A stretch of DNA of 64,000 bases from an uncultured Planctomycetia bacterium (GTDB taxonomy: Bacteria; Omnitrophota; Gorgyraeia; Velamenicoccales; Velamenicoccaceae), in the NCBI GenBank assembly GCA_964501505.1, contig CAZCSY010000001.1, positions 4,962-68,961 on the forward strand, read 5' to 3'. Below are positions 2 through 10,675 of this stretch, one piece after another (the stretch's first letter is position 1; each line of letters opens with the position of its first letter). Under the pieces are notes generated by a model, which was given only the letters and a program-made list of their open reading frames with translations, was not told the origin of the DNA and ran no database searches. The position numbers and the translations under genes are program-made.

Positions 2-136
2 GACCTCTCGGGACAGCGTCTGGCTGAGGAGATCATCCGGCAGGCCCGGCGCAAGGCGGCCGGTCGCATCAAGACGGACCCCGCGTGGTTTCGCGGGGCC
101 GAGGCCAGCGCCCGCTTTCTCGCGGGGGTGTCATGA
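2..136 (+). CDS. 3' end of an upstream gene running off the window (product unknown)
   Basis: Frame is open from the window edge (..RLAEEIIRQARRKAAGRIKTDPAWF..). Its TGA (134-136) overlaps the ATG at 133 of the next gene (ATGA coupling). Confidence 0.35.
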   Translation, partial: DLSGQRLAEEIIRQARRKAAGRIKTDPAWFRGAEASARFLAGVS

Positions 137-1173
137 CCGAGCCCGCGCGCCTGCCCACGCCGGCCCTGCGCAAGATCAATCTGGAGCTGACGCACCGCTG
201 CAACCTGCGGTGCTCTTTTTGTTTCATGGCGCATGCCGGTAAGCTCAACCGCAAGAAGAGGGAGATGTCGACGCGCGAGGTCCTGCACTTTATCGATCAG
301 GTGACGCAAAAGGTTCGCTTCTACCTGACCGGCGGGGAGCCGTTCTGCCGCAAGGATTGCTGCGCCATTATCGCCCACATCAAGGAGAGGGGGTTTGCCT
401 GCGGCGTCAACACCAACGGATTGCTTCTCGACGGGGCCACGGCGACGCACCTCGCCCGTATCGGACCGGACTTCGTCATCTTCTCGCTGCACGGCAGAGA
501 GCGTCTGCAGGATGCGATGAGCGCCCGCGCCGGCAGCTACCGGATGGTCGTGGCGAACATGAAGGCCTTCCTGCGTTGCCGCGAGAAGACCCAGGTCATC
601 CTGACGTGCACCCTGGGACCCGACAATTTTTCCGAGATGGAGGCGCTCGTCCGGCTGGCCGGGCGGTTGGGCGTCGACAGGATAATCTTTGAACACCTTC
701 AATTCGTGCGGGAGGCGGAGTTGCGGCAGCACCAGAAGGTCTGGCGTAGATATTTTAAGGGCACGGGCAGGCTCGTCACCCCTGTGATGGAGCCGGCGGC
801 GTCGCGCCGCGATCTGGCGCGGTTGACCCGCGGATTGCGCCGTCTGCGTTGCTATACCGTGCCGCCTCCGGAGATGCGGCCGGTGCTTACGCCGGAAGGT
901 TTCCGGCGCTGGTACGCGGACGTCTGCCGGCCCGCCGGGGTCTGTTCTTCGATCTGGGATACGATGGTGGTGGAGGCGGACGGCGATGTCAGGATGTGTC
1001 AGATATTTGATGTGGTCGTGGGAAACGTGCGGCGCCGGAACTATAACGAGATCTGGAAAGGGTCGCTCATGCAGAAGTGCCGCCGGGCCCTGATGGCGGA
1101 GGGCGGTGTGTTACCGGGGTGCGTGCGATGCTGTCAGCGCCTGGAAATATCTTTTTTGCCGAAGGATGTCTGA
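133..1173 (+). CDS. radical SAM protein with SPASM/twitch-like Cys-rich C-terminus
   Basis: CNLRCSFC (CxxxCxxC) near the N-terminus and a TGGEP motif. C-terminal CSSIW..DGDVRMCQ..GCVRCC. The ORF opens at 85, but ATG 133 is preferred because of the ATGA overlap with the upstream stop. Confidence 0.85.
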   Translation: MTEPARLPTPALRKINLELTHRCNLRCSFCFMAHAGKLNRKKREMSTREVLHFIDQVTQKVRFYLTGGEPFCRKDCCAIIAHIKERGFACGVNTNGLLLDGATATHLARIGPDFVIFSLHGRERLQDAMSARAGSYRMVVANMKAFLRCREKTQVILTCTLGPDNFSEMEALVRLAGRLGVDRIIFEHLQFVREAELRQHQKVWRRYFKGTGRLVTPVMEPAASRRDLARLTRGLRRLRCYTVPPPEMRPVLTPEGFRRWYADVCRPAGVCSSIWDTMVVEADGDVRMCQIFDVVVGNVRRRNYNEIWKGSLMQKCRRALMAEGGVLPGCVRCCQRLEISFLPKDV

Positions 1174-1878
1174 GAAGAGGACGGGGCGGCAGATCTTTTT
1201 TTTGAAGAGCATCTTGAGAAACCGCAGGTAGGACGCGAAGACCCTGAGGTTGGCCGCCGTCAGCGTCTCGTGGTGGAAAAAGACACCCACCAGCCGGTGG
1301 CGGTTGAGGGCCGACAGCGTCTGCTGGACGAGACTCGGCAGGACGAGGGGCAGGCATTTATAATGTTGCGTGTAGGTGTTGACGCTGACCTGGGCCGCCA
1401 GGTAGAGGAGGTCCGGCGGGCAGGGCAGGGGCTTTGCAGGGCCGGCGGCGAAGGCCTCAAACGGCCCCTCGGCGGCCGCCCGAAGCGTCCGGGCGTCGTA
1501 GCCGTGGAAGGGCGGGACGAAGGCGGGCACGAGACGTGAGCCTAATTTTTTGTTGAGCACCTGCCATCCCTTTTCCATGTCTTTTTTCTGGCGGGCGAAG
1601 GCCCGGCGGGGGCCGAATTCGTAGCGCTTGAGGCGGTGGCCGAAGTTCCGATGGGTCCACCCGTGCTGGACGACGTCAAAGGGGATCTTTTTTGCGGCCG
1701 GAGACCTGAGAAAGGTCACCAGCCTTTTTTTTATTCGTTGCGGGATCACGGCGTAGACGACAGGGATGTCTTTTTGCGCGCAGAGCTCGAATGCCGCGAG
1801 GAAGCGCGGCCGCGTGTCCGAGACGTCGTCGTCGCGCAGGAAGAGATAACGCGGACGATCCTTCAGGATTTCATCCAT
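1111..1878 (-). CDS. polysaccharide-deacetylase-like (DUF2334-type) protein
   Basis: LFLRDDDV and VVQHGWTHRNFG motifs resemble predicted deacetylases. The start overlaps the stop of the upstream minus-strand radical SAM gene. The 3' end overlaps the convergent + gene by 63 nt. Confidence 0.55.
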   Translation of the reverse strand: MDEILKDRPRYLFLRDDDVSDTRPRFLAAFELCAQKDIPVVYAVIPQRIKKRLVTFLRSPAAKKIPFDVVQHGWTHRNFGHRLKRYEFGPRRAFARQKKDMEKGWQVLNKKLGSRLVPAFVPPFHGYDARTLRAAAEGPFEAFAAGPAKPLPCPPDLLYLAAQVSVNTYTQHYKCLPLVLPSLVQQTLSALNRHRLVGVFFHHETLTAANLRVFASYLRFLKMLFKKKICRPVLFSDILRQKRYFQALTASHAPR

Positions 1879-3275
1879 GGGTCTCTGGCGAAGAAGGTCT
1901 TAAAGGCCTGCCGGGCCCAGAATCGGCTGCCGCCCCGGCACCTGAGCAGGTCCTCGCACCGGCGGCAGGCGGCCGGCAGATAGGCGAAGCCGCACAGGGT
2001 CTTGCGATAGGGATGTTGCCATGCCTTTTCGATCTCCCCGCCGCACGACACGTCGATAAAATAGCTGGGTTTGAAGACGCCCCGGGTGTCCCGCACGAGA
2101 CGGCTGTGGCCGTCGTCGAAATAGGCGCCGGTCAGGATGAGGTCTCTTTTGGTCTTGTCGGCGACGCTGCAGAAAGGCACGGGGTTGGCGACGGTAGCGA
2201 ACAGCCCCCGGCGGCCGAGCGACCAGAGCCGTCCGACGAGGCGGCTGATGTCTCGGGCCGTGACGTCATATTCTTTGTCGCTGGCAGCGTCCTTGCGGAC
2301 GATCATGGGCCGGAAGAGCTCCCAGCGCCTAATGCCCAGATCCTTGATGAGCCCGCTATAGGCGTCGAGGTGCTTGAGGAGCGTGCGCGAGATGACCGTG
2401 CCGCAGCGCAGGAGAGGGATGCCCGCCCTGACGAGCCGGCGGATGTGATCGGTCTTTTTCGCAAAGAGGCGGCCGCCGCGCGTGAGGCGTTCTTCGCTCG
2501 CGGCATCGTGTCCCTGGAGCGATATCAGGATGTTGTCGACGTACCGCGAGATGGCGCCGAGCATCTTTTCGGGCAGGACGGTGGCGTTGGTGTTTAACAG
2601 GACATAGAGATTTTTCTCCTTGGCATATTTTAAGAGCTCCGGCAGATCCGGCCGTAGCAGCGGCTCGCCTCCCGTCAACCGGATGTTCGGGATGCCCAGG
2701 CGGCGGGTTGCGTCGATGACCCCTTTTATCTCTTTCTTCGCCAGGGCGGTCGGCGATGCCTTTTTTGAAGCAAAACAGGCCCGGCAGCGGAGGTTGCACG
2801 TCGTGTTGACTTCGATGACGATCTCATTCGGCTGGTCGGGGACAGGGCGCAGAAAGGACAGAAGGTTTTCGTCACGCCGGGCGCCGGGCCGCGGCGCGGC
2901 GATACCGGGGCAGAATGTCTTGAGGTGACAGGCCTCGCAGAGAGCGATTCGGTTGTAGGCGTGCCTGCCCTTTCGCTCATAGACGACGTGGTCCCAGGCC
3001 TCCGGCAGAAAGCAGAAGGGGATGCCTTTGAGCCGGATCACGAACCAGTCCTCGAAGCCGTTGAGGAGCTTATAGAGGAGGAACTGGATGATCTCTTTGC
3101 GTCGTTGCGAGGCAAAGTCTTTGATGCCGACTTCGATGCGGCGCCTATCGGTCTCCAGGCGCCAGGAGGCGCCCAGGAGGACAAGGGCCCGGCGGATATG
3201 CTTCAAGACGGTCTCGGCAGTCACGGGACTCACGGAAGGATCCGGGATGCCGTTTTTCACCAGAGCGCTTTTCAT
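1863..3275 (-). CDS. radical SAM/SPASM-domain protein with ~160-aa N-terminal extension
   Basis: TTCNLRCRACF, TGGEPLL and a C-terminal CGGE..CGF..CRRCEDLLRCRGG region. ATG at 3275 (MKSALV) is chosen over the ORF opening at 3365 because a conserved leader and RBS lie immediately upstream. Confidence 0.85.
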   Translation of the reverse strand: MKSALVKNGIPDPSVSPVTAETVLKHIRRALVLLGASWRLETDRRRIEVGIKDFASQRRKEIIQFLLYKLLNGFEDWFVIRLKGIPFCFLPEAWDHVVYERKGRHAYNRIALCEACHLKTFCPGIAAPRPGARRDENLLSFLRPVPDQPNEIVIEVNTTCNLRCRACFASKKASPTALAKKEIKGVIDATRRLGIPNIRLTGGEPLLRPDLPELLKYAKEKNLYVLLNTNATVLPEKMLGAISRYVDNILISLQGHDAASEERLTRGGRLFAKKTDHIRRLVRAGIPLLRCGTVISRTLLKHLDAYSGLIKDLGIRRWELFRPMIVRKDAASDKEYDVTARDISRLVGRLWSLGRRGLFATVANPVPFCSVADKTKRDLILTGAYFDDGHSRLVRDTRGVFKPSYFIDVSCGGEIEKAWQHPYRKTLCGFAYLPAACRRCEDLLRCRGGSRFWARQAFKTFFARDPWMKS

Positions 3276-3402
3276 GGCAGGTCCCTTTTTTACTCGACAC
3301 CTCAGGCCTGGCGGTGCCGCTTGCGCGTCCCCGGCCCCGCCCCGCCTCTTGGCGGGACGCGCCAAACGGTCGGACTTCTTCGCCCGAGCAGCGCCTTACG
3401 CA
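3276..3402 (-). promoter_or_regulatory. conserved structured 5' leader, copy A (homologous to 11908-12021)
   Basis: The minus-strand sequence aligns with 11908-12021. A 30-nt core (3311-3340 vs 11961-11990) differs at 1 position, and similarity continues through gtcgag-A-run-RBS to the ATG. Confidence 0.5.
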
Positions 3403-3475: not shown

Positions 3476-3504
3476 TTGCCAACAGACCCATTCATTGCTA
3501 TAAT
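3476..3504 (+). promoter_or_regulatory. sigma70-like promoter of the hxs operon
   Basis: TTGCCA (3476-3481), 17-nt spacer, TATAAT (3499-3504). It lies ~145 nt upstream of the first operon gene. Confidence 0.5.
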
Positions 3505-3649: not shown

Positions 3650-4192
3650 ATGGGGCGGACTTTCTTTGGTTCGGAGTGGAAGGTGAGTTTTTTTGAGGCA
3701 TTGGCACTGTTTTTTCTTTTTGCCTTCGGCGCTTTTGTCTTCTACGGCTATTGCCAGGAAGAGCGCATCACCTTGACCACCTACTATCCAGCCCCCTTTG
3801 GTATTTACCGTGACCTGAACGTCACGCGCACCCTTAATATGTCGGTCGCCAACGCGACCAACCCCACCAACGGGATTTATTTTAACGGTCCGACCGGCGG
3901 CGCCATGATGCGCGGTTTTACCAACCAGTTGCGGATAGAAATAGCCAATGCGGCGGCCAACACCATCTATATGGGGTCCACCACTGGTTGCGGCGTGGTC
4001 CTCGGGAACGACGGCAACGTGTATGTGTGCGCGGATGTACTCGTGCATTCGAGCGGTCCCGGGCATGGCTGCTTCGTCGTGACGTATAGTTCGTTCAGCG
4101 GCATCACGGCATGCCCGGGCGGTTACACCGTGAACCTGGCGTTGTCGGGCGTGGCGACGACCACCGGCGGAGTATTTTTCTGCTGTAAGTAA
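3650..4192 (+). CDS. exported or membrane-anchored Cys-rich protein, no family recognised
   Basis: RBS aaggaggg. N-terminal hydrophobic helix FFEALALFFLFAFGAFVFYG. Gly/Thr/Asn-rich body with 7 Cys, ending in ..GGVFFCCK. Confidence 0.7.
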   Translation: MGRTFFGSEWKVSFFEALALFFLFAFGAFVFYGYCQEERITLTTYYPAPFGIYRDLNVTRTLNMSVANATNPTNGIYFNGPTGGAMMRGFTNQLRIEIANAAANTIYMGSTTGCGVVLGNDGNVYVCADVLVHSSGPGHGCFVVTYSSFSGITACPGGYTVNLALSGVATTTGGVFFCCK

Positions 4193-4197
4193 AAAAG

Positions 4198-4611
4198 ATG
4201 AGAGAATTCGTCTTAAGGGTCAGCGAAGACATCTATCCCGCGGAAGCGGTCTTGAACACCTGTTACCTTTTTCTGGAGCGCGCGTATTTTTTTGTGGAGC
4301 GGGAGAAAACAGGGATGAAGGTTCTGAAGATCCATATCCGGCCCAAAGAGAACGCCGGTGCCCCGCGGGCGCTCAAGGCTCTGCGCGGTGCGTTTTTGGA
4401 CGAGTTGGTCTATTCGTCTCTGCGCTGTACCCTGGCGCGCGAGAACCGCAAGATCCGGGAGTTTATCGTCGGCAGCGCGCTCTACGCGCAGGCCGGTTTT
4501 TCGAAGGACGAGCTTTTTTTGTCGCCGAGCGCCGACTACGAAGAGGATCCGCTGGGTATCGCCAAAACGCTGAAGAGGCGCCGTGGCAAGAAGACTTCGC
4601 AGACAATTTGA
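4198..4611 (+). CDS. hxsD: HxsD-like His-Xaa-Ser system protein
   Basis: Size, position next to the radical SAM pair and an FLDELVYSSLR..LARE segment resemble the LLNDYxLRE-type HxsD family. Assignment is by motif only. Confidence 0.6.
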   Translation: MREFVLRVSEDIYPAEAVLNTCYLFLERAYFFVEREKTGMKVLKIHIRPKENAGAPRALKALRGAFLDELVYSSLRCTLARENRKIREFIVGSALYAQAGFSKDELFLSPSADYEEDPLGIAKTLKRRRGKKTSQTI

Positions 4612-4612
4612 C

Positions 4613-4804
4613 ATGACGCTCTACAGGAAGGACGCCCTCCGGCGGGCCCTGGCGGCCTTCCGGGCATTCGCGGATTTCAGGGTGGTTCCCCTCCCGGGCG
4701 GTCGCATCGAGGTTGAGGTCCGCCGGTGTCCGACGGCCTATCGGCGCAGCATCCTGGATGAGTTCGCCAACTATCTCTTGGGGGCGACGTGGAAGGCGCA
4801 TTGA
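4613..4804 (+). CDS. small HxsD-like paralogue (63 aa)
   Basis: ATG lies 1 nt after the hxsD stop. ..RIEVEVRRCP..SILDEFANYLLGA echoes the HxsD C-terminal motif. The start is uncertain because the ORF also opens at GTG 4583. Confidence 0.5.
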   Translation: MTLYRKDALRRALAAFRAFADFRVVPLPGGRIEVEVRRCPTAYRRSILDEFANYLLGATWKAH

Positions 4805-6315
4805 GGCCGCCGCGGTTGGAGCGCAAGCGTGTCGGGTATTTCCGGTTCAAGAGGTTCAAGGACCGTTTTCTCTTGACCAATGATTTCGGGTACTTTATCT
4901 TTCTCTCTCGGCGTTCATTTCTTGCATTTGTGGAAGGGCGTTTCGAGGACCTCGACCCCGGGACGTTCCGGGAGTTGGAAGACAGGGGCATGGTCCGGGA
5001 CAAGATGTATCTGCCCCGGCTGATCAATAAGTTCGCGGCGAAGAATTTTTGCGGGCGCGGGCCGGATCTGCATATCGTCGTCGTCACCCTGCGGTGCACC
5101 CACCGTTGCGTGTATTGTCACGCCGGGGCGGCGGGGTTCGGTGAGCGGGGCGTGGACATGACGCGCGCGACGGCCCGCAAGACGCTTGACAAGATCTTCG
5201 AGACGCCGAGCAAGTACGTCACGATCGAGTTCCAGGGCGGCGAGCCGCTCTTGAATTTTGACGTCGTGCGCTTCATGATCCTGCGGGGTCTTGAGAAGAA
5301 CCGGACGGCCAAAAAGAACCTGAGCTTTTGCGTCGTCACGAATCTCTGGCCCATGACGGATGCGATCCTGGACTTTCTGGCGGCGCACAAGATTCAGATC
5401 TGCATGTCGTTGGACGGGCCCCGGACGCTGCACGACCGTCAGCGACCTCTCCTGAACGGCAGAGGGACACACCGGAACACGGTGGCGTGGCTCAAAAAGG
5501 TCAGAAAGCGGTACGCGAAGACGAAAGGTGTCCCCCTGCCGGGGGCGCTGCTGACGTTGACGCGGCTCTCTTTGAAATATCCCCGGCAGATCGTGGATGA
5601 GTACCTCCGGTGCGGCCTGAACAACATCCACCTGCGGCCCGTCAGTCCCTTCGGCATTTCGTCGGAGGCATGGCAGGATTACCGCCTCTCGTCCGCGGCC
5701 TTTCTTGAGTTTTATCGCAAGACCCTGGATTATATCCTGGCGCTCAACAAGAAGGGCGTGTTTTTCACGGAACGTTACGCCGCCATCTTCCTTTCTAAGA
5801 TCCTGACGGGCATCGATCCGGCCTTTCTGGACCTGCGGTCGCCCTGCGGGGCGGGGATCGGGCAGTTGGCGTATAATTACGATGGTGCCGTCTACACGTG
5901 CGACGAAGGCCGGATGCTGGGCCGGCGCGGCGATCCCAGTTTCCGGATTGCCGATATCGACGGGTTCTCCATCACGCGGCTGGGCGACAGTGAGGTCGTG
6001 CGGTCCGTCTGCACCGCGTCGTGCCTCGACGTCATTCCGGGGTGCGCGGACTGCGTGTACAAACCTTATTGCGGGACGTGCCCGGTTTATAACCATTTCA
6101 CAGGGGGGAGCATTTTTGGTCGGACGCCCTTTTTGTGCGAGATCTACACGGGCATCCTGGATATGTTATTCGAGAAGTTGAGCGAGCCGAGTACGGAGTC
6201 TCTCTTGCTGAGGTGGGTGGGAGCCACCAGAATCGGCGGCTCGCGGCCGACACGAGGTCGTCCGCAGGCGAAAAAGACGAACAAACGGGAAGATTTTTTA
6301 GAAGGGGAGGTGTAG
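4789..6315 (+). CDS. hxsB: radical SAM/SPASM maturase, HxsB-like
   Basis: RCTHRCVYCHA and FQGGEPLL motifs. SPASM-type C-terminus CGAG..YDGAVYTCDEG..CADCVYKPYCGTCP. N-terminal YFRFKRF..LLTNDFG extension. GTG start overlaps the previous gene. Confidence 0.8.
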   Translation: MEGALRPPRLERKRVGYFRFKRFKDRFLLTNDFGYFIFLSRRSFLAFVEGRFEDLDPGTFRELEDRGMVRDKMYLPRLINKFAAKNFCGRGPDLHIVVVTLRCTHRCVYCHAGAAGFGERGVDMTRATARKTLDKIFETPSKYVTIEFQGGEPLLNFDVVRFMILRGLEKNRTAKKNLSFCVVTNLWPMTDAILDFLAAHKIQICMSLDGPRTLHDRQRPLLNGRGTHRNTVAWLKKVRKRYAKTKGVPLPGALLTLTRLSLKYPRQIVDEYLRCGLNNIHLRPVSPFGISSEAWQDYRLSSAAFLEFYRKTLDYILALNKKGVFFTERYAAIFLSKILTGIDPAFLDLRSPCGAGIGQLAYNYDGAVYTCDEGRMLGRRGDPSFRIADIDGFSITRLGDSEVVRSVCTASCLDVIPGCADCVYKPYCGTCPVYNHFTGGSIFGRTPFLCEIYTGILDMLFEKLSEPSTESLLLRWVGATRIGGSRPTRGRPQAKKTNKREDFLEGEV

Positions 6316-6317
6316 CG

Positions 6318-6632
6318 ATGGCAAAGCAAAGGAAGAAGACCGCCGCATTGCCGCAGATCAAAAAGGAGATCAAAGACTTCCTCATGGACGAGGAAGGGAG
6401 GATCTCCAAAAAGGACATCGCCAAGCTGGGTCTGTCTCTGGCCGTCCTGGGATTCATGCTGCAGCCGGAGATCTCTCTGGCCCAGCACCATAATAACTAT
6501 ACGTCCCACATCAGTAGCTTTGCGGCTACGGGCCACCTGTCAACATCCAAGCACCAAAACACGCACTACAACCACTCAAACCACGGCAACCACTCCAACC
6601 ATTCCAGCCACTCCAACCACGGCAGTTATTAA
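6318..6632 (+). CDS. hxsA: His-repeat precursor peptide, HxsA-like (104 aa)
   Basis: RBS gaaggggagg. Lys-rich N-region, one hydrophobic helix (LGLSLAVLGFML) and a C-terminal tail with period-3 His: HSN HGN HSN HSS HSN HGS. It is embedded in track ORF 6135..6632. Confidence 0.8.
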   Translation: MAKQRKKTAALPQIKKEIKDFLMDEEGRISKKDIAKLGLSLAVLGFMLQPEISLAQHHNNYTSHISSFAATGHLSTSKHQNTHYNHSNHGNHSNHSSHSNHGSY

Positions 6633-6724: not shown

Positions 6725-7612
6725 ATGAATCGGCGTCTCGATCTGAAGGTCACCTACCAGTGCAATAACTTCTGTCGTCTCTGCGTGCAGGGCAACAAGC
6801 GCCGGCGCTTCCCCCGTCCCCCCCGCCTCGCCTATCTTAAAAAAATAATGGAGACCAAGCGCGCCACGTGCCGCGAGGTCATCTTCACCGGCGGGGAGCC
6901 GACGATCCGTCCGGATATCTTTGAGCTCATCGCATGTGCGAAGGGACTCGGGTATGAGGTTCAGATCCAGACGAACGGCCGCATGTTCGCCTACAGGGAT
7001 TTCGCGAAGAAGGTCGTCCGTATGGGCGTCGATTCGTTCGGCGTCTCCCTGCACGGCGCCGACGCCAAGACCCAGGATTTTCTGACACGCGTCCGGGGGA
7101 GCTTTAAACAGGTGACGCACGGCATCGCCAACCTTCTGGCCCTGAGGGCGGTCCTCTCCACGAACACCGTCATCAACAAATACAACTACCGTCAGCTCTT
7201 GAAGCTGGTGGACGTGCTTCATGATCTGGGTGTCGCGCAGTTCCAGCTCTCGTACCCCCACATCCTCGGCGAGGCGCGGCGCAACCGCAAGACGCTCGTC
7301 CTCAAAAAGTCCACCGTGGTCCCCTATATCCTGAAAGCCATCGAGAGGGGATTCGCGTACAACATGGTTCCCAAGGTCGAGGCTATCCCGGCGTGCCTCC
7401 TGGGTCCCTACAAAGACTGCTTGACCGACTGTGAAGTCCCGCATACCTGGGTGTGGGAGATGGCGGGGGCCAGGGATTTTACCGCTTGGTGCAAGGCAAA
7501 GGGAAAGGCGCATGGAGAGGTGTGCCGTTCCTGTCGGCTGGCGGGCGTCTGCGAGGGCCCATGGTGCGAGTACGTCACCCATTACGGCTGGGATGAGTTC
7601 CGCGCCCAGTAA
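6725..7612 (+). CDS. hxsC: radical SAM protein, HxsC-like
   Basis: YQCNNFCRLC lies 13 aa from the start, followed by TGGEPT. Cys-rich C-terminus (CLLGPYKDCLTDC..CRSCRLAGVCEGPWC). No obvious RBS. Confidence 0.75.
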   Translation: MNRRLDLKVTYQCNNFCRLCVQGNKRRRFPRPPRLAYLKKIMETKRATCREVIFTGGEPTIRPDIFELIACAKGLGYEVQIQTNGRMFAYRDFAKKVVRMGVDSFGVSLHGADAKTQDFLTRVRGSFKQVTHGIANLLALRAVLSTNTVINKYNYRQLLKLVDVLHDLGVAQFQLSYPHILGEARRNRKTLVLKKSTVVPYILKAIERGFAYNMVPKVEAIPACLLGPYKDCLTDCEVPHTWVWEMAGARDFTAWCKAKGKAHGEVCRSCRLAGVCEGPWCEYVTHYGWDEFRAQ

Positions 7613-7623
7613 ACGGTCTTTTC

Positions 7624-8595
7624 GTGTTTGAGACATTCACCCCCAAACAATTCTGCAGGGAGTTTGTTACCTCTCGAGGGAACAGCCTTCAACTGTCTTC
7701 CTTCATGGCGGTGGTCAAGGGGCTCAAGCCCTGTCTGGATGACTGGGTGGCGTGCCGGAACTTTTCCGATTTCCAAAAGGCATGCCGGCGCTACGGTCTT
7801 TTCTGTGAAACGGATACGGTCTTCCGCGTCGTCTCCCCGCGGCGCATCGGCGTCCGGATCATCGGCGCCGAAAACCTGACGACGACGCATGCCTACGGCC
7901 GGCCGTGGTCGCCGGGACTGCGGGAGGGGATGATCCACGTCTTTGTCTCGAGGTCCAAAAAGGACCTGCGGGCCTGCTGGCAGGAGGGCTGGTACCCTTT
8001 GATCATCAAGGGGCGGGTGGTCGACAAGCCCCTCATCGATGTCTATCGTTTCGGTCCCACCTTGGGCTACCCCGGCTGCTGCTGTGATTTTTTCCGTCAG
8101 CGCAACAACTGGTCGCTCTACAACTTTTTGTACGAGGTCTACAAGAACAGCGGGCCGGGGCCGTATCCGTTTCTGTGCAACGCGCTGACGCGCTACGAGA
8201 CCTATTCCTATGTCTCCCACATGCCCTGTTCGTTTTCCTGCGGCCGCACGCGCGCCCTGGCCGAGCGGATCCGGTCCGCTATCCTCGAGGAGGAGCCCGC
8301 CTTCGTCCGGGCCGTCGACCGGCACCTGAGGCTGCCTTTCCTGGTCTTCCGCGAGTGCCGGCTCTACGCCTTTGACGGGACGTTGCGCGGCAACCGGCTG
8401 GATTACCGCAGGGTCTTCTTCGCGGGGCACCAGGCCGATGAGGCGACACACGAAAAGGACCTCAAGAGGGGCGACAGTCTTTATGTGGAGAAGGACACGG
8501 TCGTTATCCTTAAAAAGGGCCGGCTGGTCAAAAAGATCGTCTGGCACAAGGAGCGGCGCGCCCTCGGCCGTCCCTTCTTGATAGGATTTGCGTGA
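7624..8595 (+). CDS. hypothetical protein with GYPGCCCDFF motif
   Basis: GTG start 11 nt after the hxsC stop. 323 aa with a Cys cluster LGYPGCCCDFFRQ..SHMPCSFSCGR. No family recognised by eye. Confidence 0.65.
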   Translation: MFETFTPKQFCREFVTSRGNSLQLSSFMAVVKGLKPCLDDWVACRNFSDFQKACRRYGLFCETDTVFRVVSPRRIGVRIIGAENLTTTHAYGRPWSPGLREGMIHVFVSRSKKDLRACWQEGWYPLIIKGRVVDKPLIDVYRFGPTLGYPGCCCDFFRQRNNWSLYNFLYEVYKNSGPGPYPFLCNALTRYETYSYVSHMPCSFSCGRTRALAERIRSAILEEEPAFVRAVDRHLRLPFLVFRECRLYAFDGTLRGNRLDYRRVFFAGHQADEATHEKDLKRGDSLYVEKDTVVILKKGRLVKKIVWHKERRALGRPFLIGFA

Positions 8596-9101
8596 TGCCC
8601 ATGGCCGAAGAGAAGCGCAACATGAGATATTTCCTGCAGGGTTTGATGCGGCAAGGGGCGTCCTGGCATGAGACGAACGCGCTGGATGATTACACGAAGC
8701 GCAAGGACCTGTGTTTTGATTTTTTGATACGCCTGTATTTTCGTGACGCAAAGGAGTTTAGCCTCCTCAGGCGGCACCTCCCCGTCCTTCTGAAAAGAAA
8801 CCGGGGAGAGGAGTGGGTCCTGGCCTGCGCGGGCTACGTCGCTTACCTCGGGCAGGACTACGAGGCGGCCTGCCGGTGGTTTCTGAAGGCCATCGAGGCG
8901 AACCCCGTCAACCTGGACAACTGGATGGACCTGGCCTTCGCCCTGCGCCATGCCGGCGACGCGGAGACGTCCACCGGCATCCTTTTTAACTTTGATTATG
9001 TGTTGTATTATGCCCGCACGTTCGGTCTTCCCGGCAGGGGCCTCGCCGGCCTCAGCGCCTTCGTGCGCAAGATCGTACGCGCCAGTGAAAAAAAGAGATG
9101 A
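8595..9101 (+). CDS. TPR-like repeat protein
   Basis: ATG overlaps the upstream TGA. ..YEAACRWFLKAIEANPVNLDNWMDLAFALRHAGD.. is TPR-like. Confidence 0.6.
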   Translation: MPMAEEKRNMRYFLQGLMRQGASWHETNALDDYTKRKDLCFDFLIRLYFRDAKEFSLLRRHLPVLLKRNRGEEWVLACAGYVAYLGQDYEAACRWFLKAIEANPVNLDNWMDLAFALRHAGDAETSTGILFNFDYVLYYARTFGLPGRGLAGLSAFVRKIVRASEKKR

Positions 9102-10066
9102 ACACCGTTCTCCTTTTGCTGCCGGCTATCTTTATCGTCGGAGTCGCCACCTCCCGGTCCGACGCCGCGGTCTACAGGATTCGCAACAAGTGGATCGCCG
9201 TGGGACTCTCTTATGCGGCGGTGGCGTATCTGGCGGCCTGGGCCTTTTATTGGCAGGGTGGGACGGCCAGCCGCGCGGCCATACCGCTCATCTGGAACTT
9301 TGAGCGTTGGTGCGTGAACTTTGCCGTTAGCCTCGCCCTCGCGTTCGTGTTGTGGCGCCGGCGCCTGTGGGGCGGCGGGGATGCGAAGCTCTTCGTCTGC
9401 TACGCGGCGCTGACGCCGCTCGCGGTTTATCCCGTCGTCTTTTTCGATTATTACTTTGCCTCCTTCTTTCTCCTATGGTGTGTCTTTGTGCCGGCGACCC
9501 TCTGGTTTCTCCTGAGCCTGGGTTGTCGCGAACTGGTGCGGGCCTGGCGCCGGCCGGAGGTCTTATGGGCCGGGCTGCGGGACAAGGCGCGGCGCCTGAC
9601 GGTTGCGGGGATATTGAAAAGTGCCGGTGAGACCGTCTGGCGTCTTGTGGTATGCGTTATCTTTTTTGCCTTTTTCCGGGACAGGGCCGCGGCGCTCCTG
9701 GGGCCGCAGATCGGCGGATCGGCCTTTGTCCAGGGTCTGGTGTTGCTCGCCGCCCTTTTGCTGCTGCGGGTGGTCACAAGGAGATTTTCGGCGTTGCTGG
9801 CGACGACGGTCCTGTTGGCAGGCCTCTTTGCCACGGACCAGGCGGCGCGGGTCCGCAGTCTCGGCACGCTGAAGACGTCGGCGCTTACCGTTTTGGTCTT
9901 CGTGTTGGTGGTTTCCCTTATTCAGCGGTTTTTTAAGTACCAGTTTGACGATAAGGACGACGAGAAGTCTTTTCTGGCCCCATGGTTTTTCGCAGGAGTC
10001 CTGGTGGTCTGGGTCCTGAAGGCCCTGCAGGGGCTGAGCTTTTTTATTCCGACGCGCGGCCTTTGA
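9098..10066 (+). CDS. A24-family (prepilin/preflagellin-type) aspartyl peptidase with extended membrane C-terminus
   Basis: Polytopic membrane protein. SDAAVYRIRNK (D-x5-I-x-N context) and GGGDAKLF signatures match the two catalytic Asp motifs of A24 peptidases. ATGA overlap with the TPR gene. Confidence 0.7.
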   Translation: MNTVLLLLPAIFIVGVATSRSDAAVYRIRNKWIAVGLSYAAVAYLAAWAFYWQGGTASRAAIPLIWNFERWCVNFAVSLALAFVLWRRRLWGGGDAKLFVCYAALTPLAVYPVVFFDYYFASFFLLWCVFVPATLWFLLSLGCRELVRAWRRPEVLWAGLRDKARRLTVAGILKSAGETVWRLVVCVIFFAFFRDRAAALLGPQIGGSAFVQGLVLLAALLLLRVVTRRFSALLATTVLLAGLFATDQAARVRSLGTLKTSALTVLVFVLVVSLIQRFFKYQFDDKDDEKSFLAPWFFAGVLVVWVLKALQGLSFFIPTRGL

Positions 10067-10090
10067 ATAACCCGAATGTTTTCTTATAAT
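10063..10090 (+). promoter_or_regulatory. sigma70-like promoter marking the end of the hxs operon
   Basis: TTGAAT (10063-10068), 16 nt, TATAAT (10085-10090). It overlaps the stop codon of the A24 peptidase gene. Confidence 0.45.
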
Positions 10091-10168
10091 CTCGCCTTCG
10101 CTCAAGAGGCTTGAACGCGCGAGAAGAGAGAGACAGACTCGGCGGGGCGGCGACAACGGGAGGTTGCC

Positions 10169-10675
10169 ATGTCCAAAGAGTTCAAGGTTATCAAGGCCGG
10201 GGCTATCCAGGATAACCCCTTTGCGGCGATCGGCGAGGGGATGTTGATCACGGCCGGTTCGGTCCGCCGTTACAATATGATGACGGCCAGCTGGGGCGCC
10301 TGGGGTGTCCTGTGGAACCGCCACGTGTGCCTGTGTTTCGTCCGCCCTCACCGTTATACGTTTACCTTTATGGAGGAGGCGGATTTCTTTACCCTTTCCT
10401 TTTTCGACAAGCGGTACAAGAAGGTACTGGATTTTTGCGGCAGCCGTTCCGGCCGGGATGTCGATAAGATGAAGAAGGCGGGCCTCACGCCCGTCTCGGG
10501 AGGCAGGGGTGTGGTCTATTTTAGTGAGGCGCGGCTGGTCATCGTGGCCCGCAAGATCTATTGCCAGGATATCGACCCCGAGAACTTCATCGACCTTCGC
10601 ATCGAGGACAATTATCCCAAGAAAGACTACCATCGGATGTACGTCGGGGAGGTCGTGAGATGTCTGAAAAAGTGA
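10169..10675 (+). CDS. flavin reductase-like (FMN-binding split-barrel) protein
   Basis: ..YNMMTASWGAWGVLWNRHVCLCFVRP.. is typical of flavin reductase-like domain proteins. Confidence 0.7.
   Translation: MSKEFKVIKAGAIQDNPFAAIGEGMLITAGSVRRYNMMTASWGAWGVLWNRHVCLCFVRPHRYTFTFMEEADFFTLSFFDKRYKKVLDFCGSRSGRDVDKMKKAGLTPVSGGRGVVYFSEARLVIVARKIYCQDIDPENFIDLRIEDNYPKKDYHRMYVGEVVRCLKK

What the first reader, a model, noticed from the sequence alone, without database searches (positions are those of the whole stretch)
6318..6632. Precursor peptide with a strict period-3 histidine tail (HSN-HGN-HSN-HSS-HSN-HGS) and an unusually long charged N-region
Seen: the 104-aa product ends ..HISSFAATGHLSTSKHQNTHYNHSNHGNHSNHSSHSNHGSY. 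The last 18 residues before the terminal Tyr have His at every third position. Looser H-x-S units (HIS, HLS) lie upstream. Most third positions are Asn rather than Ser, so this is a His-Xaa-Asn/Ser variant of the family pattern. The N-terminus is a 35-residue Lys/Glu-rich segment followed by one hydrophobic helix (LGLSLAVLGFML). That n-region is longer than in a normal Sec signal. Inference: the His tail is the radical SAM substrate (cross-linking or a metal-binding product), and the N-region acts as leader and/or membrane-targeting signal.
Basis: partly seen in the sequence, partly recalled or inferred. Interest (0 to 1): 0.7.

Follow-up and report, generated by a model that had tools for sequence, protein, structure and literature searches.

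The report
Divergent His-Xaa-Ser/Asn radical-SAM precursor peptide
This is a real 104-residue precursor peptide of the known but little-studied His-Xaa-Ser (HXS) radical-SAM system, in a divergent small form typical of Omnitrophota-like bacteria, so it is a recognisable variant, not a new kind of thing.

Summary
ORF 6318-6632 (+) encodes exactly the peptide described. It has seven consecutive His-x-Asn/Ser triplets, not six (P about 2e-4 by shuffling), and a 36-residue Lys-rich N-region before a 12-residue hydrophobic stretch.

The gene is real. It has a good ribosome-binding site, mostly synonymous changes against relatives, and more than 300 homologues.

It sits inside an HXS-type cluster: HxsD, a 73-aa HxsD-like protein, HxsB (above NCBIfam cut-off), the peptide, then an HxsC-related radical SAM enzyme. 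The peptide matches NCBIfam HxsA3 and HxsA4, but below both cut-offs.

Across 120 homologues the N-region is the most conserved part, as expected of a leader. It is followed by a Sec-type h-region and a conserved Ala-x-Ala cleavage site. Six His-x-Ser/Asn units are conserved. Asn and Ser interchange at position 3. The window's extra units are a 27-bp expansion of a 9-bp tandem repeat.

Most likely mechanism (inferred): radical SAM modification in the cytoplasm, then Sec export, releasing a 49-residue His-rich peptide.

Unusual points are the loss of the C-terminal GGWC together with its PapB-like enzyme, and an invariant Gly38 alongside a cluster-encoded prepilin-peptidase-like protease.

Modest interest: a new variant of a known kind.

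The parts
6318..6632 (+). HxsA3/HxsA4-like precursor peptide gene (104 aa plus stop)
   Evidence: Translation. NCBIfam HxsA3 42.9 bits and HxsA4 33.6 bits, both below cut-off. 309 homologues. Mostly synonymous substitutions.
6318..6425 (+). Leader / n-region, residues 1-36. Conserved block PxIKK[DE]IKDFLxxEEGKIsKKxIAK.
   Evidence: Most conserved part of 120 homologues. 11 K/R and 6 D/E.
6426..6482 (+). Sec-type h-region and c-region, residues 37-55 (L-G38-LSLAVLGFML-QP-EISLA). Predicted signal peptidase I cut is after A55. G38 is invariant.
   Evidence: Hydropathy. Family-wide A at -3 in 94/120, A at -1 in 102/120, P50 in 95/120, G38 in 120/120.
6483..6629 (+). Predicted mature core, residues 56-104. 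12 His, 11 Ser, 8 Asn, 1 Lys, no Asp/Glu. Includes the conserved units H64-x-S, G72-H73-x-S75 and H79-x-N.
   Evidence: Composition. Column conservation.
6564..6626 (+). Seven contiguous His-x-Asn/Ser triplets (residues 83-103), encoded by a 9-bp tandem repeat. Three of the units (27 bp) are an expansion relative to the closest relatives.
   Evidence: TRF, 9-bp unit x 6.3 at 6564-6620. DNA alignment with L004, L003 and L018. Shuffle test.
4789..6315 (+). HxsB, a radical SAM/SPASM peptide maturase with an N-terminal extension of about 95 residues
   Evidence: TIGR03978 472 bits, cut-off 370. Best PDB relative is CteB 5wgg, E 8e-34, aligned from HxsB residue ~50.
4198..4611 (+). HxsD-like small protein
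   Evidence: TIGR03976 47.8 bits, cut-off 50. Orthologues carry PF27806 HxsD.
4583..4804 (+). 73-aa HxsD-related protein. It overlaps the end of HxsD and the start of HxsB.
   Evidence: NF038315 52.4 bits, cut-off 41. Orthologous 66-73-aa genes in L001, L003, L014 and L019.
6725..7612 (+). HxsC-related radical SAM enzyme (295 aa; CxxxCxxC at residues 13-20)
   Evidence: Best NCBIfam hits are HxsC4 at 120 bits (cut-off 500) and HxsC at 94 bits (cut-off 268). Orthologues in L001, L003-5, L007, L008, L013, L014 and L018.
7624..8595 (+). 323-aa protein of unknown function (weak DUF483). Invariant GYPxCC, NNW, H199, C202, C206.
   Evidence: AF2 model pLDDT 77.6. No Foldseek PDB match at E<0.001.
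8592..9101 (+). Small TPR protein
   Evidence: Weak TPR_17/TPR_2 hits. Syntenic in L001 and L003-5.
9098..10066 (+). A24-type (prepilin-peptidase-like, GxGD) intramembrane aspartyl protease
   Evidence: PF01478 E 1.3e-4. 45/47 homologues hit PF01478 and 12 hit the archaeal Arc_PepC domain. D22 and D95 (in WGGGDAKLF) are invariant.
3650..4192 (+). 180-aa secreted Cys-containing protein, conserved upstream of HxsD in all related loci. First gene of the putative operon.
   Evidence: Alignment A5. Synteny. Promoter-like site at 3476-3504, 11/12 match.
1863..3365 (-). Divergently transcribed 500-aa radical SAM enzyme, syntenic in relatives
   Evidence: PF04055. 64-78% identical orthologues at the same position in L003-5.
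133..1173 (+). Radical SAM/SPASM enzyme, followed by a DUF2334-like gene at 1111-1878 (-). Both are syntenic in relatives.
   Evidence: The same genes lie downstream of the peptide in the P0114 cluster.

Best explanation
The ORF encodes a divergent, small HxsA-type (HxsA3/HxsA4-like) precursor peptide of a His-Xaa-Ser radical-SAM maturation system, in the form common in Candidatus Omnitrophota metagenome genomes.

Proposed mechanism:
1. Residues 1-36 form a conserved leader. It docks the unfolded peptide on the cytoplasmic maturation machinery. That machinery is HxsB with its N-terminal recognition region, HxsD, the 73-aa HxsD-like protein and the HxsC-related radical SAM enzyme.
2. The iron-sulfur enzymes covalently modify His-x-Ser/Asn units of the core. 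The chemistry is unknown. The candidates are the +8 Da change mapped to S-H-R-S-S in E. coli HxsA, or a His-to-C-beta three-residue cross-link as in triceptides.
3. Residues 37-55 then act as a Sec-type signal. Signal peptidase I cuts after Ala55.
4. This releases a 49-residue peptide into the periplasm or envelope. It has no acidic residues and 12 His. It acts through its imidazole array, binding polyanions such as incoming DNA (by analogy with E. coli HXS) or metals.

What is shown: gene identity, family relationship, cluster context, conservation pattern, signal features, and repeat expansion by 9-bp slippage.

What is inferred: the modification, the order of steps, the cleavage site and the final function.
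For: - Sequence and statistics.
- HxsB above cut-off, HxsD and HxsC-related neighbours.
- HxsD-like 73-aa gene above cut-off.
- All 120 homologues hit HxsA3 and 99 hit HxsA4. One homologue is named HxsA4 by NCBI.
- Cluster synteny (unknown protein - HxsD - HxsD-like - HxsB - peptide - radical SAM enzymes) in more than 10 independent loci.
- The leader is far more conserved than the core, with a conserved P..A-x-A site.
- Conserved His-x-S/N skeleton.
- HxsB is related to the RRE-containing SPASM maturase CteB.
- Published E. coli work shows HxsB/C/D-dependent N-terminal processing, periplasmic export and modification inside an HxS repeat: PMC13128918.
- There is precedent for radical SAM cross-links on His-x-x motifs: PMC11499958.
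Against: - The peptide scores below the curated cut-offs of HxsA3 and HxsA4 and does not hit canonical HxsA.
- It lacks the peptidoglycan-binding domain that is essential in E. coli HxsA.
- The second radical SAM enzyme is only distantly HxsC-like.
- The related clusters look vertically inherited. L013 and L014 share upstream synteny. They also carry up to nine further radical SAM genes. Neither is typical of a defence system, so the final function may differ.
- Invariant Gly38 is not explained by a plain Sec signal.
- No signal-peptide predictor was available.
- No experimental data exist for any HxsA3/A4-type peptide.
Confidence: 0.72

Rival explanations
1. Pilin-type processing. The long N-region is a class-III-like signal. 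The cluster-encoded A24 (GxGD) protease cuts after invariant Gly38 (AKLG|LSLAVL) on the cytoplasmic face. This either removes the RiPP leader or clears the leader-signal remnant after export. The A-x-A site would then be secondary or a second cut.
For: - Gly38 and Phe21 are the only invariant residues in 120 homologues.
- The context K-[LI]-G-[VIL]-S-L resembles the prepilin G|F-[TS]-L.
- An A24-like protease with both catalytic Asp invariant is encoded four genes downstream. It recurs in the window's clade, in L001/L006 and in L013.
Against: - The hydrophobic stretch after Gly38 is only about 11 residues, against about 20 in pilins.
- There is no Glu at +5.
- A canonical P-x-x-A-x-A site follows and is conserved.
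- No A24-like gene lies within 10 kb in L007, L008, L009, L014, L015 or L019.
- The neighbouring 180-aa protein is an alternative substrate. In close relatives it has a classical [KR]G|xxxxE prepilin N-terminus.
Confidence: 0.12
2. A triceptide-like natural product. HxsB makes a His-C2 to C-beta cross-link (-2 Da) on each His-x-Ser/Asn triplet. The result is a rigid poly-cyclophane secreted peptide whose role is chemical (metal chelation, antibiotic), not the E. coli-type defence role.
For: - The period-3 aromatic-x-x motif is the defining triceptide substrate pattern. His-x-x cyclophanes (HAA, HNR, HTK) are made by radical SAM/SPASM enzymes (PMC11499958).
- Ser and Asn interchange freely at position 3. 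Both carry a beta-methylene.
- HxsB weakly hits cyclophane-forming families YhhB, FxsB, XyeB and GrrM and the ChlB structure.
- The related clusters look like elaborate RiPP gene clusters.
Against: - HxsB scores far below the cut-offs of every cyclophane family (42-65 bits against 310-450). It scores higher against the thioether or other maturases PapB, nif11 and QhpD.
- The only measured change in an HxsA is +8 Da at one site, not -2 Da per repeat.
Confidence: 0.25
3. An unmodified secreted His-rich metal-binding peptide that merely happens to lie among radical SAM genes.
For: - The core has 12 His in 49 residues and no acidic residues.
- A P-type ATPase is inserted in the cluster of one relative, L018.
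Against: - The position of the peptide directly after HxsB is conserved in more than 10 independent loci.
- A 27-residue leader block conserved more strongly than the core has no role in a simple secreted protein.
- The L018 ATPase has Cation_ATPase_N/C domains, which I take to mark a P2-type pump, not a heavy-metal pump.
Confidence: 0.04
4. A chance ORF in low-complexity, repeat-rich DNA.
For: The tail is a 9-bp tandem DNA repeat.
Against: Ribosome-binding site. 309 homologues with a conserved non-repetitive N-terminal half. Excess of synonymous changes. Fixed synteny.
Confidence: 0.01

Closest known systems
Canonical HXS system HxsABCD (TIGR03976-03979). Shown in E. coli to be an antiphage system that blocks phage DNA entry (Li et al., Nat Commun 2026, PMC13128918).
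   Same: - A bona fide HxsB.
- An HxsD-type partner.
- A second HxsC-related radical SAM enzyme.
- A substrate with period-3 His-x-Ser-type repeats and an N-terminal export signal.
- By analogy, expected radical-SAM-dependent maturation followed by export.
   Different: - The peptide is 104 aa, against 214 aa.
- It has no peptidoglycan-binding domain.
- A 36-residue conserved leader precedes the h-region. E. coli HxsA has a plain 22-residue signal peptide.
- It has 12 His with 7 contiguous units and Asn at most third positions. E. coli HxsA has five HxS repeats.
- Gene order is D-D'-B-A-C, against D-B-C-A in 99.6% of canonical systems.
- The HxsC-like enzyme is far below cut-off.
- There are extra DUF483-like, TPR and A24-protease genes.
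- Named relatives are Omnitrophota, whereas 99.7% of canonical systems are in Pseudomonadota.
- There is no hit to TIGR03979.
NCBIfam HxsA3 (NF038309) and HxsA4 (NF038313) small His-Xaa-Ser repeat proteins, with HxsC4 (NF038332) and the HxsD-like protein (NF038315). These are database models only; no paper was found.
   Same: Same architecture (leader, signal, His-x-Ser/Asn core) and same cluster core. All 120 homologues hit HxsA3 and 99 hit HxsA4. The window's 73-aa gene passes the HxsD-like cut-off.
   Different: - The window peptide is below both cut-offs (42.9 against 65; 33.6 against 55).
- It ends in Ser-Tyr, where most members end in GGW(M)C (68/120 end in Cys) or HGQW.
- Its clade lacks the ~240-aa protein between HxsB and the peptide.
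- Its clade lacks the PapB-like radical SAM/SPASM enzyme that follows Cys-terminated members.
- It is Asn-dominated at position 3.
- Its tail is expanded.
Triceptides: three-residue cyclophane RiPPs made by radical SAM/SPASM enzymes such as HaaB, HtkB and YhhB.
   Same: Repeated aromatic-x-x triplets with His as the aromatic residue. A leader-dependent SPASM maturase. Small polar or basic residue at position 3.
   Different: HxsB is not a member of any characterised cyclophane synthase family by score. No -2 Da cross-link is known for any HxsA. Triceptide precursors are not known to me to carry a Sec signal between leader and core (from my own knowledge).
Class III (prepilin) signal peptides and A24 prepilin peptidases
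   Same: An invariant Gly immediately before a hydrophobic segment beginning [VIL]-S-L. A basic n-region. A GxGD protease encoded in the cluster.
   Different: The hydrophobic segment is too short. There is no Glu+5. A conserved signal peptidase I site follows. The n-region is much longer and more conserved than in pilins.

Membership tests
Canonical HxsA (TIGR03979) | Score at or above the curated cut-off of 121.65 bits | tested here: not met
   No hit at E<=0.01. Only 4 of 120 homologues hit it weakly.
Canonical HxsA (as characterised in E. coli) | C-terminal peptidoglycan-binding domain | tested here: not met
   No Pfam domain. The predicted mature part is only 49 residues of His/Ser/Asn-rich sequence.
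HxsA3 (NF038309) | Score at or above the curated cut-off of 65 bits | tested here: not met
   42.9 bits, E 3.1e-11. The match covers residues 11-97 against profile positions 2-81 of 81.
HxsA4 (NF038313) | Score at or above the curated cut-off of 55 bits | tested here: not met
   33.6 bits, E 5.4e-8. Homologue P0056 is named HxsA4 by NCBI.
His-Xaa-Ser repeat proteins in general | Period-3 His repeats with a small polar residue at position 3 | tested here: met
   Seven contiguous units plus HIS and HLS. Asn replaces Ser in 5 of 7 units. Ser and Asn interchange family-wide.
HXS system | HxsB radical SAM/SPASM maturase adjacent | tested here: met
   TIGR03978 472 bits, cut-off 370. Its stop codon lies 2 nt before the peptide's ATG.
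HXS system | HxsC radical SAM maturase | tested here: not met
   HxsC 94 bits (cut-off 268) and HxsC4 120 bits (cut-off 500). These are still its two best hits.
HXS system | HxsD partner protein | tested here: inconclusive
   TIGR03976 47.8 bits against a cut-off of 50. Orthologues carry PF27806. The overlapping 73-aa HxsD-like gene passes NF038315 (52.4 against 41).
HXS system | Radical-SAM-dependent covalent modification and N-terminal processing of the repeat protein | not testable with these tools
   Shown only for E. coli HxsA (PMC13128918).
RiPP precursor peptide | Leader more conserved than core, and encoded next to a maturase with a recognition domain | tested here: met
   Conservation profile. 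HxsB has an N-terminal extension of ~95 residues that partly aligns with the N-terminal region of CteB.
Sec (signal peptidase I) signal peptide | Basic n-region, h-region of 7-15 residues, small residues at -3 and -1 | tested here: met
   Manual analysis only. The h-region is residues 37-49. The site is S53-L-A55|Q56. Family-wide, Ala is at -3 in 94/120 and at -1 in 102/120, and Pro50 is present in 95/120. SignalP was not available.
Triceptide | Maturase belongs to a three-residue cyclophane-forming enzyme family | tested here: not met
   YhhB 65 bits (cut-off 445), FxsB 51 (370), XyeB 43 (450), GrrM 42 (310).
Triceptide | Aromatic-to-C-beta cross-link (-2 Da) on aromatic-x-x motifs | not testable with these tools
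   Requires MS and NMR.
Class III (prepilin-type) signal peptide | Gly at -1, Glu at +5, hydrophobic helix of about 20 residues | tested here: not met
   Gly38 is invariant. However, +5 is Val/Ile/Ala, and the hydrophobic stretch ends at Pro50.

The most novel reading that the evidence does not exclude
The peptide family would be a RiPP that borrows pilin-type processing. The strictly invariant Gly38, at the junction of leader and hydrophobic segment, would be the cleavage site of the cluster-encoded A24 (GxGD) intramembrane protease. In that case the leader of a radical-SAM-modified, poly-(His-x-Ser/Asn) cross-linked peptide is removed at the membrane during export. That leader-removal route has not been described for RiPPs, to my knowledge.
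Probability: 0.12. Interest if true: 0.65.

Novelty: new variant of a known kind. Interest (0 to 1): 0.35.

Why it matters
The HXS system received its first functional assignment in 2026, and its radical chemistry is still unknown. E. coli HxsA is insoluble and could not be reconstituted.

The small HxsA3/A4-type peptides have about 50-residue cores, a well-defined leader and a simple cluster. They are not described in the searched literature. In the window the cluster is B, D, D', one HxsC-like enzyme and no PapB-like enzyme. This could make a far more tractable substrate for finding out what HxsB and HxsC do to His-x-Ser units.

The free interchange of Ser and Asn at position 3, and the natural variation in repeat number, give ready-made substrate-scope information.

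For genome annotation, this clade falls below the NCBIfam cut-offs. It would be labelled hypothetical.

Tried and rejected
1. An apparent Phe-Ser-Arg period-3 variant in locus L008 would have supported the triceptide idea. It was an artefact. A masked run of N shifts the frame. The real sequence is a ~170-aa His-[Ala/Gly]-Ser repeat ending HSSY.

2. The fold of the 323-aa neighbour was modelled (AF2, pLDDT 77.6). Foldseek against PDB gave nothing at E<0.001. Its function stays unknown.

3. The PADLOC defence library gave only generic viperin-type radical SAM hits and nothing for the peptide, HxsD or the accessory genes. The library predates the HXS paper.

4. I looked for a terminator or attenuator between the peptide and the next gene. 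None was found. The fold z-score is +1.06.

5. No second HxsA-like copy exists in the window.

6. I suspected a degraded large TPR gene after the A24-like gene. It is simply absent, and the flavin reductase follows directly.

7. A sequence search of the A24-like profile against PDB gave no hit.

8. The genome-contig scan returned only 7 loci, so co-occurrence statistics rest on about 12 independent clusters.

9. The first structure-prediction job failed and was re-run.

10. The organism of the window could not be named. Exact look-ups carried no names. Named relatives are mostly Candidatus Omnitrophota.
Full report
**Observation**

- The ATG at 6318 lies 7 nt after a GGAGG. It lies 2 nt after the stop codon of the upstream gene.
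It covers residues 83-103: HYN HSN HGN HSN HSS HSN HGS. That is seven units, five with Asn and two with Ser at position 3.
- HIS (64-66) and HLS (73-75) lie upstream.
- In 200,000 shuffles, a run of seven or more never arose from the whole-protein composition. It arose at a frequency of 2.2e-4 from the composition of the last 49 residues alone.
- At DNA level the tail is a 9-bp tandem repeat, CACTCCAAC x 6.3, at 6564-6620.
- Compared with the closest relatives, the window has 27 extra bases, which is three 9-bp units. The number of units ranges from 2 to 7 within this clade. So the tail grows and shrinks by slippage.
- Residues 1-36 hold 11 Lys/Arg and 6 Asp/Glu.
- The only hydrophobic stretch is residues 37-49. 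At about 12 residues it has signal-peptide length, not transmembrane length.

**Is it a gene?**

Yes.
- A single-sequence search found 24 small homologues of 87-116 aa. A profile search found 309.
- Against three relatives, codon changes in the leader and signal part are mostly synonymous: 8:3, 17:5 and 11:2.
- There is no second copy in the window.

**Context**

NCBIfam identifies these neighbours:

| Coordinates | Assignment | Score vs cut-off |
|---|---|---|
| 4198-4611 | HxsD (TIGR03976) | 47.8 vs 50 |
| 4583-4804 | overlapping 73-aa HxsD-like protein (NF038315) | 52.4 vs 41 |
| 4789-6315 | HxsB (TIGR03978) | 472 vs 370 |
| 6725-7612 | 295-aa radical SAM enzyme; best hits HxsC4 and HxsC | 120 vs 500; 94 vs 268 |

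The peptide itself hits HxsA3 (42.9 bits, cut-off 65) and HxsA4 (33.6 bits, cut-off 55). It does not hit canonical HxsA.

Downstream follow three more genes:
- A 323-aa protein with a weak DUF483 match.
- A small TPR protein.
- A 322-aa membrane protein of the A24 prepilin-peptidase family. Both catalytic aspartates, D22 and the GxGD D95, are invariant in 47 homologues.

Upstream lie:
- A conserved secreted 180-aa protein.
- On the other strand, a 500-aa radical SAM enzyme and a DUF2334-like gene.
- A radical SAM/SPASM gene.

A promoter-like site (11 of 12 matches) sits at 3476-3504, before the 180-aa gene. This is only a consensus match.

**The family**

Where sources name the organism, it is nearly always Candidatus Omnitrophota. 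NCBI calls one member HxsA4.
- All 120 listed homologues hit the HxsA3 model and 99 hit HxsA4. So the window peptide is a sub-threshold member of an HxsA3/A4 continuum.
- The alignment shows that the N-terminal block P12-x-I-K-K-[DE]-I-K-D-F-L-x-x-E-E-G-K-I-s-K-K-x-I-A-K-x-G38 is the most conserved part. F21 and G38 are the only invariant residues.
- It is followed by a hydrophobic stretch of about 10 residues, then Pro50 (95/120), then Ala at -3 (94/120) and Ala at -1 (102/120) before the His-rich part.
- This is what a RiPP leader fused to a Sec-type signal peptide with a signal peptidase I site looks like.
- The core has a conserved skeleton: H64-x-[NS], F68, G72-H73-x-S75 (Ser in 113/120), H79-x-[SN], H86-x-[NS]-H89-x-[SN]-H92-x-[SN]. 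Most members then have G-G-W(-C).
- Every member has a period-3 His run. Position 3 is Ser 539 times and Asn 309 times. 37 of 120 members are Asn-dominated.
It therefore fails to refute the finding.

**Cluster comparison**

In relatives of the window's clade (L003, L004/L005, L018) the whole cluster is syntenic.

More distant members (L001/L006, L009, L013, L014, L015, L019, and the clusters of P0099 and P0114) share a common core. It is unknown secreted protein - HxsD - HxsD-like - HxsB - peptide. They differ in three ways:
- They add a ~240-aa unknown protein between HxsB and the peptide.
- Where the peptide ends in Cys (GGWC), a PapB-like radical SAM/SPASM enzyme follows directly.
- They carry up to nine further radical SAM genes.

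The window's clade ends in Ser-Tyr and lacks both the ~240-aa gene and the PapB-like enzyme.

A peptide 80% identical to the window's but ending in GGWC (P0005) sits in a different cluster. That cluster has the 253-aa protein and a PapB-like enzyme, but no HxsB or HxsD nearby.

So the C-terminal Cys co-varies with the PapB-like enzyme. The window's system is a stripped-down version.

The A24-like, DUF483-like and TPR genes travel with the HxsC-like enzyme in the window's clade, in L001/L006 and in L013. They are not within 10 kb in L007, L008, L009, L014, L015 or L019.

**What is known**

The HXS system was defined bioinformatically by Haft and Basu, as cited in PMC9062424. In 2026 it was shown in E. 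coli to be an antiphage system (PMC13128918):
- HxsA is 214 aa, with a signal peptide, five HxS repeats and a peptidoglycan-binding domain.
- It needs HxsB, HxsC and HxsD for N-terminal processing and periplasmic accumulation.
- It carries a +8 Da change mapped to S-H-R-S-S in the last repeat.
- 99.7% of those systems are in Pseudomonadota, and 99.6% have gene order D-B-C-A.

No paper mentions HxsA3, HxsA4 or HxsC4. A recent Omnitrophota genome survey does not discuss these clusters.

Radical SAM/SPASM enzymes that cross-link His-C2 to the C-beta of the third residue of His-x-x motifs are established for triceptides (PMC11499958).

HxsB's nearest solved relative is the RRE-containing thioether-forming maturase CteB (E 8e-34). 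The alignment starts inside CteB's N-terminal region.

**Most likely mechanism**

The following steps are inferred, not shown.
1. The conserved leader (residues 1-36) recruits the cytoplasmic machinery: HxsB, HxsD, the HxsD-like protein and the HxsC-like enzyme.
2. The radical SAM enzymes modify His-x-Ser/Asn units.
3. The h-region and the S-L-A55|Q56 site direct Sec export and signal peptidase I cleavage.
4. A 49-residue peptide is released into the envelope. It has 12 His, one Lys and no acidic residue.

The fixed G-H73-x-S75-[ST] element resembles the modified S-H-R-S-S of E. coli HxsA. It is at least as good a substrate candidate as the length-variable end of the tail.

Ser and Asn interchange at position 3. 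This fits chemistry at the C-beta of that residue, but it does not prove it.

The final role is uncertain. By analogy it would bind polyanions such as incoming DNA. However, there is no peptidoglycan anchor. The clusters also look vertically inherited: L013 and L014 share BatD-TPR-GH77-Wzy upstream. They are much more elaborate than a typical defence system. A metal-binding or other envelope role is therefore equally open.

**Rival worth testing**

The invariant Gly38, in the context K-[LI]-G|[VIL]-S-L, together with the cluster-encoded GxGD protease, suggests pilin-type cleavage of the leader.

Against this:
- The hydrophobic stretch is short.
- There is no Glu at +5.
- The A-x-A site is conserved.
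- The protease gene is absent from many related clusters.
- The neighbouring 180-aa protein is another candidate substrate. In close relatives it has a textbook [KR]G|xxxxE prepilin N-terminus. The window's copy, however, has Lys in place of the Gly.

**Dead ends**

- An apparent Phe-Ser-Arg repeat variant in L008 was a frame artefact of masked N.
- The 323-aa protein has no structural match.
- PADLOC gave only generic radical SAM hits.
- No terminator follows the peptide gene.

**Verdict**

- The object is a divergent clade of a catalogued but uncharacterised small-peptide branch (HxsA3/A4) of the HXS family. I rate it a new variant of a known kind, of modest interest (0.35).
- Its main value is as a compact, tractable substrate-enzyme set for working out the unknown HxsB/HxsC chemistry.

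Noticed in passing
window 4583-4804 (+): A 73-aa gene overlaps the end of HxsD by 29 nt and the start of HxsB by 16 nt. It passes the NCBIfam HxsD-like model (52.4 bits, cut-off 41). Gene callers could easily miss it. Orthologues of 66-73 aa occur in L001, L003, L014 and L019.
   Followed up: yes
window 9098-10066 (+): A membrane protein of the A24 prepilin-peptidase family. Both catalytic Asp (D22, and D95 in WGGGDAKLF) are invariant in 47 homologues. 12 homologues also match the archaeal A24 C-terminal domain. Its substrate in this cluster is unknown.
   Followed up: partly
window 3650-4192 (+); L004 4338-4877, L003 7316-7894, L018 4855-5415: A 180-aa secreted protein (mature N-terminus QEE-ITLTTYYPxPFG, C-terminal CC[KR]) is conserved upstream of HxsD in all related clusters. 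In close relatives its N-terminus is a classical type IV prepilin signal ([KR]G|xGFxE followed by 20 hydrophobic residues). The window copy has Lys in place of the Gly, and distant orthologues have plain signal peptides.
   Followed up: partly
L001 10309-11442, L009 10413-11420, L013 10293-11453, L015 5287-6408, L016 2759-3907, compared with the window, L003, L004, L018, L007, L014, L008: Family members ending in Cys (GGWC) are followed directly by a PapB-like radical SAM/SPASM enzyme. They usually also have a ~240-aa unknown protein before the peptide. Members ending in Tyr or Trp, including the window, lack that enzyme. This suggests a thioether-type step on the C-terminal Cys that the window's clade has lost.
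   Followed up: partly
L016 2439-2762 and L017 2396-2719: A peptide 80% identical to the window's (same leader) but ending in GGWC lies in a different cluster. That cluster has four radical SAM genes, with no HxsB or HxsD among the called genes of these ~9.6-kb contigs. Either the maturation enzymes act in trans or this is a separate pathway sharing the leader.
   Followed up: no
window 7624-8595 (+): A 323-aa protein with a weak DUF483 match and invariant GYPxCC, NNW, H199, C202, C206, which may be a metal site. The AF2 model is of fair confidence, and no PDB fold match was found.
   Followed up: yes
L008 10244-10344: A masked run of N inside a ~170-aa His-[Ala/Gly]-Ser repeat gene makes the downstream repeat read as Phe-Ser-Arg in the wrong frame. 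This is a trap for automated motif searches.
   Followed up: yes
window 2-133, 133-1173 (+), 1111-1878 (-), 1863-3365 (-): The end of a GT28-type glycosyltransferase, a radical SAM/SPASM gene, a DUF2334-like gene and a 500-aa radical SAM gene are syntenic with relatives. They also occur downstream of the peptide in the P0114 cluster. They probably belong to the same extended pathway.
   Followed up: partly
L013 1-6281 and L014 1-6312: Two distinct genomes share the same genes upstream of the cluster: BatD, TPR/SH3, GH77 and a Wzy_C ligase. This suggests vertical inheritance at a fixed chromosomal site, not a mobile defence island.
   Followed up: no
L018 9868-12426: A P-type cation ATPase (852 aa) is inserted between the DUF483-like gene and the TPR/A24-like genes in one close relative. 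It is absent from the window.
   Followed up: no
window 10066-10169: The large (~608 aa) TPR gene that follows the A24-like gene in L003, L004 and L018 is absent from the window. The flavin reductase gene follows directly.
   Followed up: yes
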